Shown in pieces: positions 12,307 through 57,112 of a stretch of 64,000 nucleotides of DNA. Source of the DNA: Octopus sinensis (Eukaryota). The translations under genes and the position numbers were made by a program. A model generated the notes under the pieces. It searched no databases. It was not told the origin of the DNA and saw only the letters and a program-made list of their open reading frames with translations. How positions within the stretch are numbered: position 1 is the first letter of the stretch; every line of letters starts with the position of its first letter. The DNA is taken from positions 16,058,001 through 16,122,000 of the forward strand of contig NC_043012.1 in the NCBI RefSeq assembly GCF_006345805.1, written 5' to 3'.

Positions 12307-12377
<71 letters not shown>

Positions 12378-12404
12378 TATATATAGATATATATATATTT
12401 CATC

Positions 12405-12961
12405 ATATCAAAGGAAATGGAAATTAATTAAAATGTTCACTTCCGGTGACCTAACGTGTAAGAATTTAGTCCAAAAGACTATGTATTAGTCATAAAATAC
12501 AGTGTACATTTAAACACATGGGGTATCCACTCGTGAGATTCAGCACGCTAGAAAGAACAGCTAGGTTCTATAACCACAAAATTAGGGATAAAATTCGACA
12601 GGAACGAAATGAAAAAATAAATACCTTTTACCATCTAGTTTCCTGTACCAATTGGTTTCTGGTTTTAGTTTAGCAAGTAATTCAATAGCATATACTCGCT
12701 AGGTGAAATCGTCTTCAGCAGGAACACCTAGGGTTAAATATATAAACACGAAGCGATCAAACTATGTGCCTCTTATTTATACATCCTATTTTTTTCAAAA
12801 TCTACTGCGCAGACGCAGCCCTTCGCCAGTAATAAAAAAATGCCAACTTTTAAAAACCGAAAATTATCCAAAAACTTACAATACTTAATTATATCAAAGG
12901 GAAATGGAAATTAATTAAAATTTTCACTTCTAGTGGCCTAACGTGTACGAATTTAGTCCAA
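12405..12961 (-). mobile_element. Non-coding HHR unit with ~70 bp terminal direct repeat (retrozyme-like or PLE pseudo-LTR)
   Basis: Direct repeats at 12405-12474 and 12891-12961 with an internal HHR. A partial second copy lies at 32272-32447. Confidence 0.7.
12640..12724 (-). ncRNA. Type I hammerhead ribozyme motif
   Basis: ttcctg CTGAAGA [long imperfect helix II incl. tagcgagta/tacttgcta] a GAAA ccaattggt A caggaa. Helix I 6 bp perfect, palindromic helix III, GUA site. Confidence 0.75.
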
Positions 12962-13026
12962 TTTACCCTGTTCTCGTTCTGTTAACGGATAGGCGTTCAG
13001 GCGAGTATACTGGCATTGTGTAGGGA

Positions 13027-13099
13027 AATGCAGCTGATGAAGACTGATCAAATTTACGTAGTCAAACGTATTTAAAGAGTCAGAAACCGGTCCTGCATT
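13027..13099 (+). ncRNA. Type I hammerhead ribozyme motif
   Basis: aatgcag CTGATGA a gact..agtc a GAAA ccggt C ctgcatt. Helix I 7 bp, palindromic ACCGGT helix III, GUC site. Confidence 0.8.
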
Positions 13100-13371
13100 A
13101 TCCGATTTTAGGTTGTCCATTTATCGAATGTTCTTCCTAGAGTTAAGACAAATTTTTCATGTTTGTTGCACACACATGTCTTTGCTAGTAAATACGCTGT
13201 GAAGCAATACAATAGCGTCGTATTTGTATCCATTACTATTTTCCAGTAAATATTGGTGCCTTGTTGTACCACTTATCTATTTTTATATGTATACATACAT
13301 ACATACATACATACATACATACATACATACATACACATATATATATGTATATATATATGTATATAAGTATA

Positions 13372-13900
13372 TATCTGTCCCTTTCTCTTCTCTTTTGTCC
13401 TCACGTGACCAGCCACCGACTACTGCCTTTTCGCATCCAGCAGTCATTGTGGCAAGACACATTTGTTTGTTTCTCTGTGGCCTTAAGGCACTCTTCTATA
13501 GCCGCCAGCTCAAAACTTAACTCGTCCTGTCGAAAAGACGCTTGTCCTGACGTCCTGGTTTTGTTGTTATCCTTACCATTATTGTTTTTACGTATTTTGT
13601 ATTCTTATTCGTGCTATCATTATTGCTTTTACGTACTTTTGTATTTTTATTCGTGTAACTTCGTCCGTTTTCCGTCCCTGTGTTGTATACATTCGAGGCT
13701 TTCTTCCAAGGAATCTAATGCGCCTGGCTCAGATTTCCCTTGGGAGCTGCCCAGATCGGAGCAATCTCAAGATTAATCAGCCGAAATTGCGAAGATGATC
13801 CGGTTCTTGACTGAAGATTGAGGGCTTCGAATGTCCCGTCCGTGTTTTTTGTGTCGTCTTCTAAATGTTTCACGTTCTTGTCCCAGTTTTTTTTTGCTTT
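13372..13900. repeat. Unclassified interspersed repeat (second copy at 31700-32185)
   Basis: About 500 bp of high similarity to 31700-32185; both copies lie between microsatellites. Confidence 0.8.
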
Positions 13901-20042: not shown

Positions 20043-20537
20043 AAGAAAATCAAAGCTAAAACAAACCCTGTCCAGAGGAAACAAAAGGACCCCAGCAAGA
20101 ATTATAAGGGCAAAGAAAGAAAAATCTGCAAATTCTACCTGAAGGGGGACTGCTGGTACGGCGTCTAAGGTGCGAACTGTCGCTTTGCACATCAGAGGCC
20201 CCACCAAAACCGCACGGACGCGAGACAGGGGTCCGTCCCTTGGGGAGAACAAAAAGAAAAAGAAAAAGAAAAATATAAAAGAAGGAAAGAAAGCGCACTG
20301 ACCACTCCTGAAAGACGATATGCGGATGTGGTGCGCGGTAACCCAACAAATGGCCAGCTTCACCCAGATGTGAGAAGGGCAGCAGCTGAACAGCAATCTT
20401 TTTTGTGCATGGCACAAAAAATTGTTCAGCAGCTGACCTGGCTACAAGCACAAAGCTGGAACTACCACCACATAAGGCCACCACCAACAGATGCAGGATG
20501 GCCACCACAGACACCAACACCAACACACACACCATAA
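20043..20537 (+). pseudogene. LINE ORF1 C-terminal remnant with CCCH zinc finger
   Basis: Reads KICKFYLKGDCWYGV*GANCRFAH...RRYADVVRGNP...QQSFL, in frame with ORF 20328-20537. One TAA at 20166. Confidence 0.7.
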
Positions 20538-23509
20538 AAATATTTCTACTGAACGTAGGAGGGCTGCTGCGCGGAAACTGTAAAAGGAAAATCTCATTCC
20601 TGAAAGACCTTGTGACATGCAATCAAGCTATATGCATGGCACTCACAGAAATGCATCTTGAACCCGATATAGGTGATGCAGAAATACACATGCCGCAATA
20701 TGCAGTCATACGCACAGATAGAAAAGGGAGGAGCCATGGTGGAATTGCAATGTACATCCGAGATGACCTCACGCCCCAGATCCTGTTGTCATATTCAAAC
20801 TCAGTGTGTGAAACTCAAATTGTACACATAAGACAACTGAATATCGTCATATGCACTACATATCGCCCACCAGATGCCCCAAATCACTCAGGCATGTTTG
20901 AAGACTGCCTAACAAAAATAGGAGAAGTCCTCACCAACCTTGAACAACACAACAGTGTATTCTTTTTGGGTGACTTTAACTTCCCCAATGTGGAATGGCC
21001 TGGGGGGAAGATGCTCTCAGGGATGACACACCATCAACAGGCACAGGCAGAGTCCCTGCTCCATCTCACAAATGCCTCTTTCATGGAGCAAATAGTTCTG
21101 CAACCAACAAGGGCAGATAATATACTGGATCTCTGCTTCACAAACAATATGGATATTATCCATAATGTTAATGTGATGCCGACAATGATCTCGGATCACA
21201 ACATAATAGAGCTGTCTATGTATGGAACAAAAGCCCCCGTAGACACACAGCCTATACGAAGCATCCACCATTTCTCCAACTTAAACTTTCATAAAGCAAA
21301 CTGGAAGTTGATTGAGAAAGAGATCCTCAAACAGGATTGGCCTAAATGTCTCTCCACACCGGACATTAACATGAAACACAAACACTTCATGTCCATAATA
21401 CAAGCCATATGTGACAAATATGTCCCAGTGTGCAGGGCCAACACACACAAAAACAAAAACAGGATCCCTAGAGAAAGGAAGATTCTTATGAGACGACGGA
21501 CAAGGATTGCAAACCGCCTGAGCAAGCACACCAAAAGTGGTGAGAAGTCTCGGCTCGAGAGAATGCTAATGGAAATTGAGAAAAGTCTGCATCAGTCCCA
21601 TGAAAAGGAGAGAGCAGATAAAGAAGCTTGGGTAATAGAAAATATAAAATCAAACCCTAAAGCTTTCTTTAAGTTTGCCAAAGAGACAGCTACAGTGCAC
21701 TAGAGAATAGGACCTCTCTTCCAAAAAGATGGCTCTCTCACAGGAAATCCCACGAGGATAAGTGAAATACTGAACGAAAAATTCCAAAGTGTGTTCACTA
21801 CACCTCTAGGACACAGGCAAGTAAACAACCCAGAAGAATTCTTTGCCACTTTACCTGCGGCCAAAGAGGCAAAAATTGAGTACATCAACATCGAAGATGA
21901 TGATATCACACTAGCCATAGATGAGATTGATGCAAACTCAGCTGCTGGACCTGATGGATTCCCAGCGATCCTTCTCAAATCGTGCAAACGAGCCCTTGCA
22001 AAACCGCTACAGCTTCTTTTTCAAAGCTTTCTTGCAAGTGGTAAGCTCCCAGTCAAATTGAAAGAGGGGGTAATATGCCCTATCCATAAGGGAGGTAGCA
22101 GAGCAGACGCTAAAAATTATAGGCCTATCTCTCTGACCTCACACATCAGCAAAGTCATGGAACGAATAGTCCGTAAGAAACTAATCATGTTCCTTGAAGA
22201 AAATGACTTGCTGTCTGACACCCAGCATGGATTTCGACCAGGAAGAAGCTGCCTAACACAGCTCCTGCAACACTATGACTGGGTGTTGAAACAGCTACTA
22301 AATGGCTCAAATGTGGATGTAATATATCTCAACTTTGCAAAAGCCTTTGATAAAGTCGACCATGGTATGATCTGTCACAAACTGCGTGGTCTCGGCATAG
22401 GCGGAAAACTTGGAGAGTGGCTGCACAACTTCCTAAAAGACAGAAAACAGGCAGTTGTGAGCAATGGAGCCACCTCCAAGGAAACACAAATAACAAGCGG
22501 TGTCCCACTGGGCACTGTCTTGGGGCCACTGATGTTCATAGTGGCGCTTTCAGACATGCCTTCAGTTGCTACGATGACCACCCTTGCTAGCTATGCAGAT
22601 GACACAAAAGTCTACCACACAATACAAAACCCTGAAAATATTGCGCATCTCCAACAGGAGTTGGACACAATATACAGGTGGGCTGAGGACAACAACATGC
22701 AGTTTAATGCAGGTAAGTTCCAGGCCCTGCGCTACCGGCACACAAAGGTAAACGACGTGCAGACTGGATACACTGGCCCAGGAAGAATTGCAATCCCTGA
22801 GTCAAAATCAGTGCGTAACCTGGGCGTTGACATGAGCAATGATGCATCTTTCCAAGTGCATATTGCTAATCTGGTGATAAAATGCAGACGGCTAGCTGGA
22901 TGGATTCTCCGAACTTTCAGAACAAGAGAGAAGGAGACACTGATGGTCCTATGGAAAACATTCGTCCTCAGCCGCTTGGACTACTGCTCCCAACTATAGT
23001 CACCACACAATATAAAACCAACAGCAGAACTCGAAGCAATTCAGAGAAGCTACACAAAGAAAATCGTCTCAATGCAAAATATCAGCTATTGGGAAAGACT
23101 GAAAGTATTAAACCTCTTCTCCCTAGAGCGGAGGCGGGAGAGATATGCGGTGATATACATCTGGAAAATCCTGGAGGGTCTTGTCCCAAACTTTGGCATT
23201 CAAAGTTACCCCAACCGCAGAGTGGAGCGCCACTGCATGATGCCAAAGATTCCAACATCACCATCAAAATACAGATCCAGATACTGCAACAGCTTGGGTT
23301 TCAGAGGACCACAGCTCTTTAACATCCTCCCTAAATGCCTGAGAGACTTACATGGTGTGGATGTGGGTTTCTTTAAAACCAAACTGGATCTCTTCTTGTC
23401 GGGTATCCCAGATGAACCTACCTCACGACGGGAGACGCAGATGCGGGCAGCAGCATCGAACTCCCTTGTCGATCAAGTGCCACGTATCAGAGGTATATTC
23501 ACATATTAG
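20405..23509 (+). pseudogene. LINE ORF2 (APE endonuclease plus reverse transcriptase) with two nonsense codons
   Basis: ORFs 20405-21703, 21791-22999 and 23072-23509 share one frame, broken only by TAG at 21701 and 22997. Motifs ALTE, YRPP, GDFN, SDH, YRPISL, QHGF, KAFD, YADD. Confidence 0.92.
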
Positions 23510-26369: not shown

Positions 26370-26447
<78 letters not shown>

Positions 26448-26552
26448 TAAAAACGGTAAGATACCAAAAGAAAGAAAGAGATCTAGATATTATGTAAATT
26501 ATGTAAATTGAGGAATTTATCTGTAAATGTAATATGTGACAATTATTCGGTA

Positions 26553-26622
26553 GCCAAGATAAAACTCCGAGTTTCGGATGCCGAGTTGGAAATCAACGCC
26601 ACCATCTCTTCAGTTATCCGGC
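26553..26622 (-). ncRNA. Type I hammerhead motif, family F
   Basis: gccggataa CTGAAGA gatg..gttg attt ccaac..catc c GAAA ctc g gag T T ttatcttggc. Helix III ACTC/GAGT with a 1 nt loop; GUU site. Confidence 0.75.
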
Positions 26623-26643
26623 CATCATAGCGTTTTTCTGATG

Positions 26644-26711
26644 GCTGGATAACTGAAGAAGGTGGTATGGATTTCCACCTTGGCATCCGAAACTCGGAGT
26701 TTTATCTTGGC
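26644..26711 (+). ncRNA. Hammerhead motif, family F, inverted partner copy (helix II disrupted)
   Basis: gctggataa CTGAAGA aggtgg..ccacct tggcatc c GAAA ctcggagt t ttatcttggc. Inverted repeat of 26523-26626. Confidence 0.6.
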
Positions 26712-26774
26712 TACCGAATAATTGTCACATATTACATTTACATATATACATATATAAAATGCGGATGTCAAGTG

Positions 26775-29180: not shown

Positions 29181-29217
<37 letters not shown>

Positions 29218-29302
29218 TTAGAGACAAAACCACTATTTTGCAAAACAAACAAGGAAAGACTTAATCAATACATAAAATTTTAATAAATAGTCAAAAAAAC
29301 CG

Positions 29303-29345
29303 CCACTACAATTGTTTCTTGTCTTGATCGACAATCTTCAGGTGG
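29303..29345 (-). ncRNA. Canonical minimal type I hammerhead ribozyme
   Basis: ccac CTGAAGA ttgtc gatcaa gacaa GAAA caattgt A gtgg. All three helices perfect, palindromic helix III, GUA site. Confidence 0.85.
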
Positions 29346-29515
29346 ACTTCCAATAAGTCAGTTTCAAATTATTATATATATATTATTATATATATATATA
29401 TGACTGGTTTCTTTCAGTGTCCATCGTCCAATTCTACTTTCAAAGCTTTGGTCGGACTGAGGCTATAGCAGAGGACACTTGGCCAAAGTGCCACATGTAA
29501 TGTTTCTATTTATTA

Positions 29516-32204: not shown

Positions 32205-32271
<67 letters not shown>

Positions 32272-32272
<1 letters not shown>

Positions 32273-32490
32273 ATAGTGTATATTTAAACACACGGGGAAT
32301 CCACTCATAGGAATTCAAGACGCTAGAAAGAACAGCTAGGTTCTATAACCACAAAAATTAGGGATAAAATTCGACAGGAACCAAATGAAAAATAAAAACA
32401 TTTTACCATCTAGTTTCCTGCACCAATTGGTTTCTGGTTTTAGTTTACTCCCTAAACTAAAATCAGAAACCAATTGGTGCACGTGATGTT
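32272..32490 (-). mobile_element. Partial copy of the 12405-12961 HHR unit ending in a fold-back
   Basis: Matches 12498-12672, then tgcaccaattggtttctggttttagttta is immediately repeated in inverted orientation. Confidence 0.75.
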
Positions 32491-47832: not shown

Positions 47833-48135
47833 CATTTATATTTCTCGCTTGTGTGTATTCTACTGACGAGGCAAAGCATTCCTAAATGCAACGTCAGAAA
47901 TCCGGGATCTAGAATTAACCAGTAAATTTTTACTAGTTTCATCTTGTCTCTCCGTGTTGATATATAGACAATTATGGTGGTTTTAGAGTCAGATCATGGC
48001 TTCTGTTTTCAGCATGGTGGTATATCGTAGATACCCTAATTTATAATTTTAATAATTATTACCTTTGAAGGTTACTTTTTCCATGCTGACCACTTGATCA
48101 AATCGTTATTTTATTTTTAGATTAACGATTTTATC

Positions 48136-48136
<1 letters not shown>
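47572..48136 (+). mobile_element. Non-coding HHR unit with ~35 bp terminal direct repeat
   Basis: aaatcgttattttatttttagattaacgat at 47572 and 48100; bounded by (TA)n on both sides. Confidence 0.7.
47857..47915 (+). ncRNA. Type I hammerhead ribozyme motif
   Basis: attcta CTGACGA ggc..gcatt ccta aatgc..gtc a GAAA tcc g gga T C tagaat. Helix I 6 bp, helix III with a 1 nt loop, AUC site. Confidence 0.82.
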
Positions 48137-48166
<30 letters not shown>

Positions 48167-48306
48167 TGATAAAACGGTAAGATAACAAAAGAAAGAAAGA
48201 GACCTCAATATTATGTAAATAGAGAAAATTTATCTATACAATAATATGTTACATTACTCGGTAGTCAAGATAAAACTCTGAGTTTACGCCCCCTTACTCA
48301 CCCGAG

Positions 48307-48939
48307 GTGGCCTTCAATATAGGTAAATATTTCCTAGCACTGATAGATGGACATTTTCCAGTTAACCATACTTATAGGAAACTCTTCAATAGACACAATT
48401 TAAAAATTAGTTTTAGTTCAACTACCAATTTTAAAAACATAATCAAACATAACATACAAAAAACACAAGAAGAAAACAGCTGTTCATGCAGGAATAAAGA
48501 ATTGTGCCCGCTAAATGGAGCTTGCATGTCCAAGACCATCATATATGAAGCTACCGTAAACCCTATGACCACTAAAGACACCGTTTCGACGAAGAAATAC
48601 GTGGGCCTTACAGAGGGTAATTTCAAGGCCAGGTTCAATAACCACACTTTGAGCTTTAGGCACTGGAACAAAAGAAAAGCGACACAATTATCTGATCATA
48701 TTTGGTCTTTAAGAGATAAAGGTGTCGATTATAACATACAATGGAAGATTTTGGCCAGATGTAAGCCCTATACCAACGGCAGCGGAAGGTGCGGTCTATG
48801 CGACATGGAGAGATGGCTTATCTGGAAAAGCAGCTTAGACCCTACTACATGTCTAAATACAAGGACAGAGCTTTTCGGATCATGCCCACATGTGACTAAA
48901 TTTCTGTTACATTTTTGGTCCCCTAAAGAAAACAGATAG
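48307..48939 (+). CDS. PLE C-terminal linker plus GIY-YIG endonuclease (5'-truncated, open frame)
   Basis: NIGKYFL..HFP..FNR, CSCRNKELC (CxCx5C), IIYEATV..YVGLTE..FKARFNNH, CGLC..E, LNTRTEL..CPH. Confidence 0.8.
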   Translation: MAFNIGKYFLALIDGHFPVNHTYRKLFNRHNLKISFSSTTNFKNIIKHNIQKTQEENSCSCRNKELCPLNGACMSKTIIYEATVNPMTTKDTVSTKKYVGLTEGNFKARFNNHTLSFRHWNKRKATQLSDHIWSLRDKGVDYNIQWKILARCKPYTNGSGRCGLCDMERWLIWKSSLDPTTCLNTRTELFGSCPHVTKFLLHFWSPKENR

Positions 48940-49131
48940 AACATGCTTTCTATGTTATGTCCGAAGAAGAATTTATATATTTTTATATATTTTTATATAT
49001 TTTTTATGTATTTTTATATAATTTTTATGACGAAAAATGCGAGCGATGTATTAGTACGCAGGCAAGCAGAGTTATAACACAGTAATTTCCCTTTATTTAA
49101 CGGTATTTTTTCATAGCGTTTTCAAATAGCC

Positions 49132-49194
49132 AGATAACCGAAGATATGGTGTTGTGGATTTCCACTTCGGCATCTGAAACTCAGAGTTTTATCT
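49132..49194 (+). ncRNA. Family F hammerhead motif with mutated core (CCGAAGA)
   Basis: agataa CCGAAGA tatg..gtgg attt ccac..catc t GAAA ctc a gag T T ttatct. Confidence 0.55.
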
Positions 49195-49219
49195 TGACTA
49201 CCGAGTAATGTAACATATT

Positions 49220-49279
<60 letters not shown>

Positions 49280-55444: not shown

Positions 55445-56520
55445 AATAGAAAATAATACTATGGAGAGCATCCAGCAAATATCTAACTTTATCCACCAGA
55501 GTATTAAGGTCACAATAGACTAGCCCACTAAACACCCCAACCATAGACTACCAGTACTAGACACAGAACTCTGGCTAGAATTGTGAATAATAAAACCCAA
55601 ATCCTTCATTCGTACTATGCAAAACCTATGGCCTCAAAATACTTGATCTACCGAAACACACCCATTGCGGACAATGCCAAATTCAATATTTTGATGGCAG
55701 ACCTCGTCAGAATAATGAGAAATGTGTTACGCATGTGCGAGCCTACAGAGTTAAAAAGACACATACAATATTTCATTCACCGCGTGCAGTTCTCAGGTTA
55801 CAGCCATAAAGAAAGGATCAGAGTATACAAAGGGGCCATGAAGAAATTTGATAATATATTATGTAATGATAGGAATGGGATTTGCCCGCTCTATAGGAAC
55901 AAGTCATGGAACACTATAGAAAGGACAAAAAAGAAAATAGGGAAGGCCAACTCTTGGTATGATAGCCATAAATACCAGAGTGTCGTGTTCGTTGACACCA
56001 CCCCTGGAGGTGAACTGGCGTACCGCTTTAGAAGGACCCTAGACAAACTTAAGCTAAGGATTAAGGTTGTTCAAAGGCCAGGCAACCCTAACAAATCTAT
56101 AATCGGTAGAACCTATCCTTTTAGTAGAACCCCTGTACGGATGAGCACTGTACTGTATGTAGATTTAGCCCACAAACAAACTGTAAAGCCAGAAATGTAG
56201 TCTATAGTATAAGATGTATAGAGGGACGATGCAGTAACAAGACAACGACATACGTAGGGGAAACGGCAAGAAGCATAGGAGAGCGGGTAAATGAACATTG
56301 GAGACAACTCAAGGAAGGTAAAAGCTCATCGATTCTGTACCAACACGTCGAACAGGAAGACGGGGGATCAATCAACAACATAGAAATTAAAATATTGTCC
56401 AGACATAGAACAGATGCAACAATCGGATAAATTACAGAAGCTACACACATAATAGAAAATAAACCTAGCCTGAATAGGAAACTAGAATGGGACACTAGCA
56501 CACACCACAACATATGACGG
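55445..56520 (+). mobile_element. Naiad-like PLE 3' half (RT thumb plus GIY-YIG)
   Basis: HPNHRLPVLDTELW, YAKPMASKY, VFVDTTPGG, CTDEHCTVC..NVVYSIRC..YVGETAR..EH..LNRKLEW. Same family as 26775-28480. Confidence 0.85.
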
Positions 56521-56945
56521 TAGAGGATCCCAATAAACTGGTTACAAAAAAAACCGAAAACATAATAAATAAAATACACAGATAAATAAACAAATAGAAA
56601 TATATAACTATATAAGTTTTTTTTAATGTAAAAGATTTTTTAATTTATTATTATTATTACTAGTATTGTTGTTATACATACATACATACATACAAGCATA
56701 TGTAATGATAATAATAAGTGGATGTAAACATGAACAAAATAAGAATACACAAAAACAACAACAAAAACAAATTACATGAACGTATATAAACAGAAGATAC
56801 AAATATTACAGGCATCCCCCCTACACACACACTAAGTAAACATAGACGCACATAAAGATATAAGCATGCGCAAATGAAAACATACAATAGAAATACAAAA
56901 TGGCTGACGGTTAGTAAGGAGAGACACAAATAAGAAGGAAACAAA

Positions 56946-56990
56946 GGACCACTGATGCGGTCACAGGAGTGTGACGAAAGAACTCTGGCC
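56946..56990 (+). ncRNA. Hammerhead motif in the 3' region of the Naiad-like PLE (A9 mutated)
   Basis: ggacca CTGATGC g gtcac aggagt gtgac GAAA g aa c T C tggcc. Confidence 0.6.
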
Positions 56991-57112
56991 GAAATAAGAT
57001 TAAGATTAATGTAAAAAAGAAATAACACTGAAGCAAAGTAACATCAAATATATAGTCCGTGTGTTTTTATTGGCTAAACTGGCAAAATGACCATTCCGAA
57101 ATATAACAATAT

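What the first reader, a model, noticed from the sequence alone, without database searches (positions are those of the whole stretch)
12405..12961. HHR unit with terminal redundancy (486 bp period): retrozyme or circular-RNA signature
Seen: a non-coding unit starts and ends with the same ~70 bp (12405-12474, 12891-12961), has a hammerhead in the middle and starts at a (TA)n tract. Inference: a slightly-more-than-unit-length insert is expected from reverse transcription around a circular RNA monomer released by HHR cleavage. Partial tandem PLE pseudo-LTRs are the alternative explanation.
Basis: partly seen in the sequence, partly recalled or inferred. Interest (0 to 1): 0.75.

Follow-up and report, generated by a model that had tools for sequence, protein, structure and literature searches.

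The report
Two ribozyme mini-elements joined head-to-head
This is one of hundreds of genomic copies of a small protein-free repeat carrying a predicted self-cutting RNA, likely pasted into TA microsatellites by a borrowed Penelope-type enzyme; here it is fused back-to-back with an unrelated repeat of the same kind, which would mean that one insertion can be copied from two different RNAs.

Summary
The repeat is 81 bp (89% identical, period 486). The hammerhead lies on the minus strand, so the TA tract marks the 3' end. The family cut triplet is GUC; this copy's GUA is a substitution. The unit belongs to a non-coding 482-bp family (A; 366 exact motif hits). Copies are not randomly permuted: 3' ends sit at two fixed sites next to TA tracts and 5' ends are ragged. 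Of 86 insertions, 51 are head-to-head pairs; all 35 classifiable pairs have one long and one short end, Penelope's 'tail' pattern. No copy examined joins a Penelope ORF. The 'terminal redundancy' is a cDNA that ran 1.17 units, as in 13 of 137 arms. A circular template is plausible but unproven (about 0.45). It is the only such join among the loci fetched. If it was one event (about 0.55), fold-back self-priming cannot explain it. The scan noted the long/short rule before on other DNA. Verdict: new non-LTR-retrozyme-type family with a mechanistically useful chimeric copy.

The parts
12307..12398 (.). (TA)n target tract at the 3' end of the family A arm
   Evidence: 104 of 118 A arms with a long or short end have a microsatellite within 30 nt
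12395..12961 (-). Family A arm, 1.17 units, from -311 to +251 relative to the predicted cut; 94% identical to the family majority; 3' end is the 'long' end
12395..12474 (-). 3' copy of the 81-bp redundancy (lies within the ~97-nt 'tail' between the short end near 12492 and the long end)
12881..12961 (-). 5' copy of the redundancy: the cDNA continuing into the next unit before truncation
   Evidence: other copies continue further
12640..12724 (-). Predicted type I hammerhead A: core 12718-12646, predicted cut between 12646 and 12645, palindromic helix III (dimer type); damaged in this copy (GUC to GUA, helix II mismatch)
12625..12727 (-). Likely cryptic 103-nt exon holding the whole hammerhead (AG before, GT after)
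   Evidence: two contigs from runs guessed to be RNA match 12625-12729 with 0 differences and run on into other sequence; splice dinucleotides; no other scored locus above 92%
12961..12962 (.). Direct 5'-to-5' junction of family A and family B, no TA spacer
12962..13293 (+). Family B arm (427-bp unit), from -153 to +199; 3' end is the 'short' end; 23-nt deletion upstream of the core
13027..13099 (+). Predicted type I hammerhead B: core 13034-13092, GUC, palindromic helix III
13284..13374 (.). (TACA)n/(TA)n target tract at the 3' end of the family B arm

Best explanation
The unit is a 1.17-unit copy of a dispersed, non-coding 482-bp repeat with a predicted dimer-type hammerhead ribozyme, likely inserted into a TA microsatellite by a borrowed Penelope-like RT/GIY-YIG enzyme, and here joined head-to-head to an unrelated hammerhead repeat, likely in the same event. 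Shown: the family, unit-to-unit continuity, two fixed 3' ends, ragged 5' ends, long+short pairing, TA targets, no ORF, the clean A|B junction. Inferred: the enzyme nicks both strands of the TA tract; each 3'-OH primes cDNA on element RNA, one at the long site and one at the short site; the cDNAs run 5'-ward through the hammerhead and past the unit boundary, stop at variable points and are joined, often with microhomology. The template must be longer than one unit or closed: I put a ligated circle at about 0.45 and an uncleaved tandem transcript at about 0.4, the rest on template jumps. The A|B join as a single two-template event is about 0.55.
For: Copy number: 366 exact hits of a 24-mer, control 0; 466 hits of the hammerhead 14-mer, control 17; family B 160 hits, control 0. 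Length-unbiased A sample (first 100 of 366 hits, 86 insertions): 51 head-to-head pairs and 35 solos; pairs are 35 long+short, 0 long+long, 0 short+short, 16 with one unclassifiable end; 13 of 137 arms exceed one unit. B sample (first 100 of 160 hits, 92 insertions): 20 long+short, 3 unclassifiable, plus the window's A|B pair, also long+short; 16 of 115 arms exceed one unit. 26 of 51 A junctions overlap and 1 of 51 holds a TA run. Inverted 5'-truncated copy, one-sided tail and (TA)n targeting are described for Penelope-like elements (PMC8557442; PMC3846280). No PLE ORF is joined to any A or B arm: 3 of 233 loci had a PLE protein hit, all away from the arm; in 40 more loci with 3-kb flanks, 3 weak hits lay 1 kb or more from the arm. 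The ribozyme looks selected: core C3-G8/U3-A8 covariation 42:3 vs 31:13, Fisher p=0.006; 88% of cells paired, 20 two-sided changes, 0 of 500 shuffles. Majority monomers fold better than shuffles, z -4.3 (A) and -5.1 (B). No indel scar at the cut site in about 119 A arms (2 indels). A GIY-YIG PLE family of this genome shows the same two-end, TA-target anatomy.
Against: The mobilising PLE was not identified: A and B share no DNA similarity with the one autonomous family examined or with each other. Nothing here shows cleavage or circles. The shuffle test ignores relatedness, and helix III is invariant by my selection. Both hammerheads carry an extra A before the GAAA box (101 of 105 in A), untested for activity. 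5' ends near the cut were enriched in A (rate ratio 1.8, p=0.01, window chosen after looking) but not in B (ratio 0.43), so cleavage leaves no consistent footprint. Arms of same-family pairs share diagnostic variants more than chance (461 of 541 sites, 85%, vs 54% expected; 43 pairs), which fits one RNA copied twice as well as two RNAs of one active subfamily. The A|B join is a single case. Independent insertions into one TA tract are common here (L385, L356, L317), and about half of solo arms lack TA at their 5' side (20 of 35 A, 32 of 68 B), so a second insertion with target deletion could mimic it. One long+long pair occurred among 15 B pairs in a similarity-biased sample.
Confidence: 0.8

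Rival explanations
1. Same element and enzyme, but the template is a linear, uncleaved read-through transcript of a few genomic tandem source copies; no circle is involved.
For: 52 of 98 motif-bearing A arms run more than 10 nt past the predicted cut, as expected if the minimal hammerhead cuts poorly (low in vitro activity in PMC4209133). Source-like tandems exist: 5 loci with two exact hammerhead motifs at unit spacing, one about 2.4 units long (L235), and at least one more missed by the gap limit (L240).
Against: Such arrays are rare (5 double hits against 466 single hits), and linear copying alone would shorten templates over generations (inference). The ribozyme core covaries, implying that cutting matters. 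Related animal retrozymes accumulate as circles (PMC7229834).
Confidence: 0.4
2. The A and B arms are two separate insertions into one microsatellite; the later one deleted the TA spacer and part of its neighbour.
For: Different hammerhead elements often share a TA tract. Many solo 5' ends lack TA. B solos are nearly all short-ended (59 of 68) and A solos are long-ended in 15 of 35, so long+short arises by chance about half the time. No second A|B case among 229 A and 144 B distinct alignment pieces.
Against: The junction is flush, like same-family pair junctions (50 of 51 without TA), whereas the three co-located cases inspected keep a TA spacer. Orientation and end types both match the pair rule.
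Confidence: 0.45
3. The unit is the pLTR of an autonomous Penelope-like element and this is an ordinary 5'-truncated remnant.
For: Hammerhead type, tail, inversion and TA targeting are all PLE traits; the window holds several PLE remnants.
Against: The period is 482-486 bp: copies pass from unit to unit for up to about 2.4 units without an ORF; no ORF is attached in the loci tested. The tblastn queries were only the window's PLE fragments, so a very distant ORF could be missed.
Confidence: 0.08
4. One reading: reverse transcription starts at arbitrary points on a circle, giving circularly permuted, slightly-more-than-unit inserts.
For: Inserts longer than one unit exist (13 of 137 A arms).
Against: 3' ends fall at two fixed sites, most arms are shorter than one unit, and 5' lengths are broadly spread rather than peaked just above one unit.
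Confidence: 0.03

Closest known systems
Animal non-LTR retrozymes (Cervera and de la Pena 2020, PMC7229834: passages and Discussion read; Li, Clavereau and Pollet, bioRxiv 10.64898/2026.07.22.740005: parts 1-3 of 5 read)
   Same: Non-coding, low-GC (34%) unit of a few hundred bp with a type I hammerhead; partial head-to-tail tandems; PLEs proposed as the mobilising enzyme.
   Different: Mostly dispersed sub-unit to 1.4-unit arms rather than arrays; two fixed 3' ends and head-to-head long+short pairs, which the parts I read do not describe; circles and cleavage not shown; no sequence link to a PLE pLTR found; this copy has a single, damaged hammerhead.
Endonuclease-positive Penelope-like elements (PMC8557442 and PMC3846280, passages; PMC4209133, parts 1-2 of 4)
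   Same: Partial tandem, adjacent inverted 5'-truncated copy, tail at one end only, (TA)n targets, hammerhead with palindromic helix III, unpaired base before G10.1-C11.1, U3-A8 core variant.
   Different: No RT/GIY-YIG ORF; tail about 97 nt (A) and 57 nt (B) against 30-40 bp published; the inverted partner here is from another family, whereas PMC3846280 explains head-to-head inversions by self-priming and reports no cross-mobilisation between families in its species.
Non-autonomous Chlamys elements such as MRC1 (PMC8557442, passage)
   Same: Non-coding elements that form pLTRs and head-to-tail insertions using a PLE enzyme in trans.
   Different: Those generally resemble their autonomous partner at the 3' end, and most Chlamys lack canonical hammerheads; here there is a hammerhead and no partner was found.

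Membership tests
Animal non-LTR retrozyme | Type I hammerhead motif in the unit | tested here: met
   Motif, fold and covariation; predicted only; extra A before the GAAA box
Animal non-LTR retrozyme | Short, low-GC, non-coding monomer | tested here: met
   482 bp, 33.6% GC, longest stop-free frame 101 aa
Animal non-LTR retrozyme | Tandem copies with two or more hammerheads | tested here: met
   Met for the family at few loci (5 hits; up to about 2.4 units); this copy has one hammerhead and would count as a monomer derivative under the definition
Animal non-LTR retrozyme | Self-cleavage of the transcript | not testable with these tools
   Indirect 5'-end footprint inconsistent between A and B
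Animal non-LTR retrozyme | Accumulation as circular RNA | not testable with these tools
   Only assembled contigs were available
Animal non-LTR retrozyme | No PBS or PPT | not tested
   No tRNA-primer search was run
Autonomous EN+ Penelope-like element | ORF with RT and GIY-YIG endonuclease between pLTRs | tested here: not met
Autonomous EN+ Penelope-like element | Partial tandem plus adjacent inverted 5'-truncated copy | tested here: met
   51 of 86 A insertions are inverted pairs; 13 of 137 arms exceed a unit
Autonomous EN+ Penelope-like element | [quoted passage not shown] | tested here: met
   35 of 35 classifiable A pairs and 20 of 20 classifiable B pairs; tail longer than published
Autonomous EN+ Penelope-like element | (TA)n target bias (Neptune, Naiad, Hydra) | tested here: met
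   104 of 118 arms
Autonomous EN+ Penelope-like element | Retained intron ending at hammerhead helix I (Penelope of D. virilis) | tested here: inconclusive
   Donor-like site at 12879 and acceptor at 12728 are present; no such joint among those listed (the list in 49 was cut)

The most novel reading that the evidence does not exclude
The flush A(long)|B(short) junction is a single integration in which one Penelope-type enzyme complex primed two unrelated RNAs, one at each cut strand. Head-to-head Penelope insertions would then be two-template products rather than fold-back self-priming, one enzyme would serve several unrelated retrozyme families, and pairing of the two RNAs through their palindromic helix III would not be needed (the A and B palindromes differ).
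Probability: 0.5. Interest if true: 0.62.

Novelty: new member of a known kind. Interest (0 to 1): 0.42.

Why it matters
How Penelope-like elements make their tandem and inverted insertions is called undefined in PMC8557442, and their role in moving animal retrozymes is proposed but not shown. Two more families obeying a near-strict long+short rule put Penelope's insertion signature on retrozyme-type units. A cross-family pair is the kind of natural recombinant that separates two-template priming from self-priming, and it can be tested from population genomes alone. The flagged redundancy by itself is ordinary and does not show a circular RNA.

Tried and rejected
Rfam: no hit in the window. 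Local DNA duplication as the source of the 81-bp repeat: rejected, because many dispersed copies continue further into the next unit. LINE-1-style twin priming on one linear molecule: rejected, because paired arms cover overlapping template. Cut-site pile-up of 5' ends: seen in A, failed to replicate in B; some A ends near -32 are alignment breaks in an older subfamily. A weaker pile-up one unit upstream of the long end (A: 9 ends at -250..-226; B: ratio 2.4, p=0.03, sample includes similarity-picked loci) is unexplained. Template-jump scars at the cut, short or long site: none in A; in B the long site had 5 indels in about 34 arms, in a low-complexity stretch. Expression: no RNA holder listed. 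The drop in contig depth 5' of the cut in RNA-guess runs also appears in the large genomic-looking runs X19 and X20, so it says nothing. Autonomous partner: the window's 55.5-57.1 kb PLE family has no DNA similarity to A or B; L385 (B next to a PLE) has a TA spacer; two hammerheads 2.2 kb apart (L239) are a local duplication without ORF. Further cross-family pairs: none in 110 unpaired 5' flanks by hammerhead scan or among the A and B samples; partners lacking a hammerhead or from unknown families would be missed, and no genome-wide paired-motif scan was completed, so their genome-wide number is open. Lunse et al. 2017 (PMC5785218) was not held; I saw only its title in a reference list. No supplementary files were read; those of the Li et al. 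preprint and of PMC8557442 could list these families.

Full report
Observation. The sequence shows an 81-column direct repeat, 12395-12474 and 12881-12961, 88.9% identical and 486 bp apart, far above shuffles (110 against at most 33 in 300), beside a (TA)n tract at 12307-12398. A type I hammerhead lies on the minus strand, core 12718-12646. In RNA sense the element therefore reads right to left and ends at the TA tract. A second hammerhead on the plus strand, 13034-13092, lies just outside the flagged unit.

Family A. The genome is 2.7 Gb. A DNA search gave 1873 candidates, of which 40 were scored. An exact 24-mer has 366 hits, control 0; the hammerhead 14-mer has 466, control 17. The majority monomer is 482 bp, 33.6% GC, with no stop-free frame above 101 aa. 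Copies run from one unit into the next with no intervening ORF; the longest seen is about 2.4 units (L235). Only 5 loci carry two exact hammerhead motifs at unit spacing, plus one just outside the gap allowed (L240), so long arrays are rare. PLE protein fragments from the window hit 3 of 233 loci, never at an arm, and gave only weak, distant hits in 3 of 40 loci with 3-kb flanks.

Insertion anatomy. I took the first 100 of the 366 motif hits (contigs C1-C4), which are unbiased for length, and resolved them into 86 insertions. The 3' ends fall at two sites, about +154 (short) and +251 (long) from the predicted cut, with a microsatellite within 30 nt in 104 of 118 arms. The 5' ends are ragged. 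51 insertions are head-to-head pairs: 35 long+short, none long+long or short+short, 16 with one end unclassifiable; 35 are solos (17 short, 15 long, 3 other). 13 of 137 arms exceed one unit, the longest 653 nt. The flagged 'terminal redundancy' is one such arm, truncated at -311. This matches what PMC8557442 (passages) and PMC3846280 (passages) describe for Penelope-like elements: partial tandems, an adjacent inverted 5'-truncated copy, a tail at one end only and (TA)n targets. An abundant C-terminal GIY-YIG PLE of the same genome (6636 candidates; Pfam GIY-YIG just under cutoff) also has two 3' ends and TA targets but no DNA similarity to A or B. The enzyme is therefore inferred, not identified.

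The ribozyme. The family majority folds as a hammerhead with a 6-bp helix I, a long helix II and a palindromic helix III that pairs far better between two molecules (-14.4 kcal/mol) than within one (-1.6). This resembles the dimer-type PLE hammerheads of PMC4209133 (parts 1-2 read), including the unpaired base before G10.1-C11.1 and the U3-A8 core variant. Positions 3 and 8 covary (C-G 42, C-A 3, U-G 31, U-A 13; p=0.006, copies not independent). On 35 diverse copies 88% of cells pair and 20 change on both sides, above all 500 shuffles, though that control ignores relatedness. Both A and B have an extra A before GAAA, of unknown effect. The window copy carries GUC to GUA and a helix II mismatch, and its best fold is off-pathway; it is probably a weak or dead ribozyme.

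Circle or not. For: more-than-unit arms arise although source arrays are rare; majority monomers are well structured (z -4.3 and -5.1, though the antisense strands score similarly); arms cross the cut site without scars; related retrozymes are circular in vivo (PMC7229834). Against or neutral: uncleaved transcripts of the few tandems would give the same products; 52 of 98 motif-bearing arms run past the cut; enrichment of 5' ends at the cut in A (ratio 1.8, post hoc) did not replicate in B (0.43). I leave circle 0.45, linear tandem 0.4.

The second element and the junction. 12962-13293 belongs to family B: 1793 candidates, 160 exact motif hits, 427-bp unit, no similarity to A (best E 1.2). In the first 100 of 160 hits (92 insertions) B shows the same rule: 20 long+short pairs, 3 unclassifiable, 68 solos. 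In the window, A supplies a long end and B a short end, each against its own TA tract, and their 5' ends meet flush. This is the only A|B locus among all loci fetched (229 A and 144 B distinct pieces). PMC3846280 explains head-to-head inversions by self-priming and saw no cross-mobilisation in its species; a cross-family pair cannot arise by fold-back. The alternative, two insertions with loss of the spacer, is real: co-location in a TA tract is common, though the three cases inspected keep TA between elements, and about half of solo 5' ends lack TA. Same-family pairs share subfamily variants (85% against 54%), so most pairs come from one RNA or one active source. I put the single-event reading at about 0.55.

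Novelty. The class is published. Paper searches listed nothing on these families or on cross-family inverted pairs, but the library is partial and I read no supplements. I noted the long/short pattern before consulting the scan's notes; these report the same rule in this and other genomes and hints of two templates, and hold no note on these sequences. They are unchecked leads, not support. Verdict: new member of a known kind, interest 0.42; the redundancy is ordinary and the chimeric junction is the part worth following.

Noticed in passing
window 12625-12727 (-): Contigs from two studies (X1 record 2, X3 record 19; runs guessed to be RNA, depth 4-6) match exactly this stretch with no differences and continue into other sequence on both sides; the borders fall on AG and GT, and two substitutions relative to the family majority strengthen the donor. 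Likely a cryptic exon carrying the whole hammerhead into a host transcript; neighbouring exons not found.
   Followed up: partly
window 12728-12879 (-): A consensus-like splice donor just past the long-end site and an acceptor at the start of helix I could define a 152-nt retained intron like that of D. virilis Penelope; no joint seen in the contigs listed.
   Followed up: partly
window 32271-32481: A second family A insertion: short-ended arm against a TA tract with a 38-nt inverted piece at its 5' end.
   Followed up: partly
window 26445-26745: Head-to-head pair of another hammerhead family between TA tracts, arms of unequal length; it resembles by eye the 3' end of the PLE remnant at 48274-49222.
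   Followed up: no
window 55547-57110 (+): Remnant of an abundant C-terminal GIY-YIG PLE family (6636 candidates; listed copies with open frames up to about 1100 aa) with two 3' ends about 50 nt apart and a hammerhead-like motif with a variant core.
   Followed up: partly
window 47835-48140 (+) and 29216-29370 (-): Further hammerhead-like elements with palindromic helix III next to TA tracts; the first shares the extra A before GAAA with A and B.
   Followed up: no
window 20390-23509: LINE-type remnant: endonuclease domain ORF at 20390-21703 (Pfam Exo_endo_phos_2) followed by RT-like frames.
   Followed up: no
L246, L263, L249, L273: An older A subfamily (75-80% identity) keeps the same long and short ends and helix III but has a rewritten helix II, showing that the end sites are old and conserved.
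   Followed up: partly
families A and B, genome-wide samples: B solos are almost all short-ended (59 of 68) while A solos are evenly split (17 short, 15 long); unexplained.
   Followed up: no
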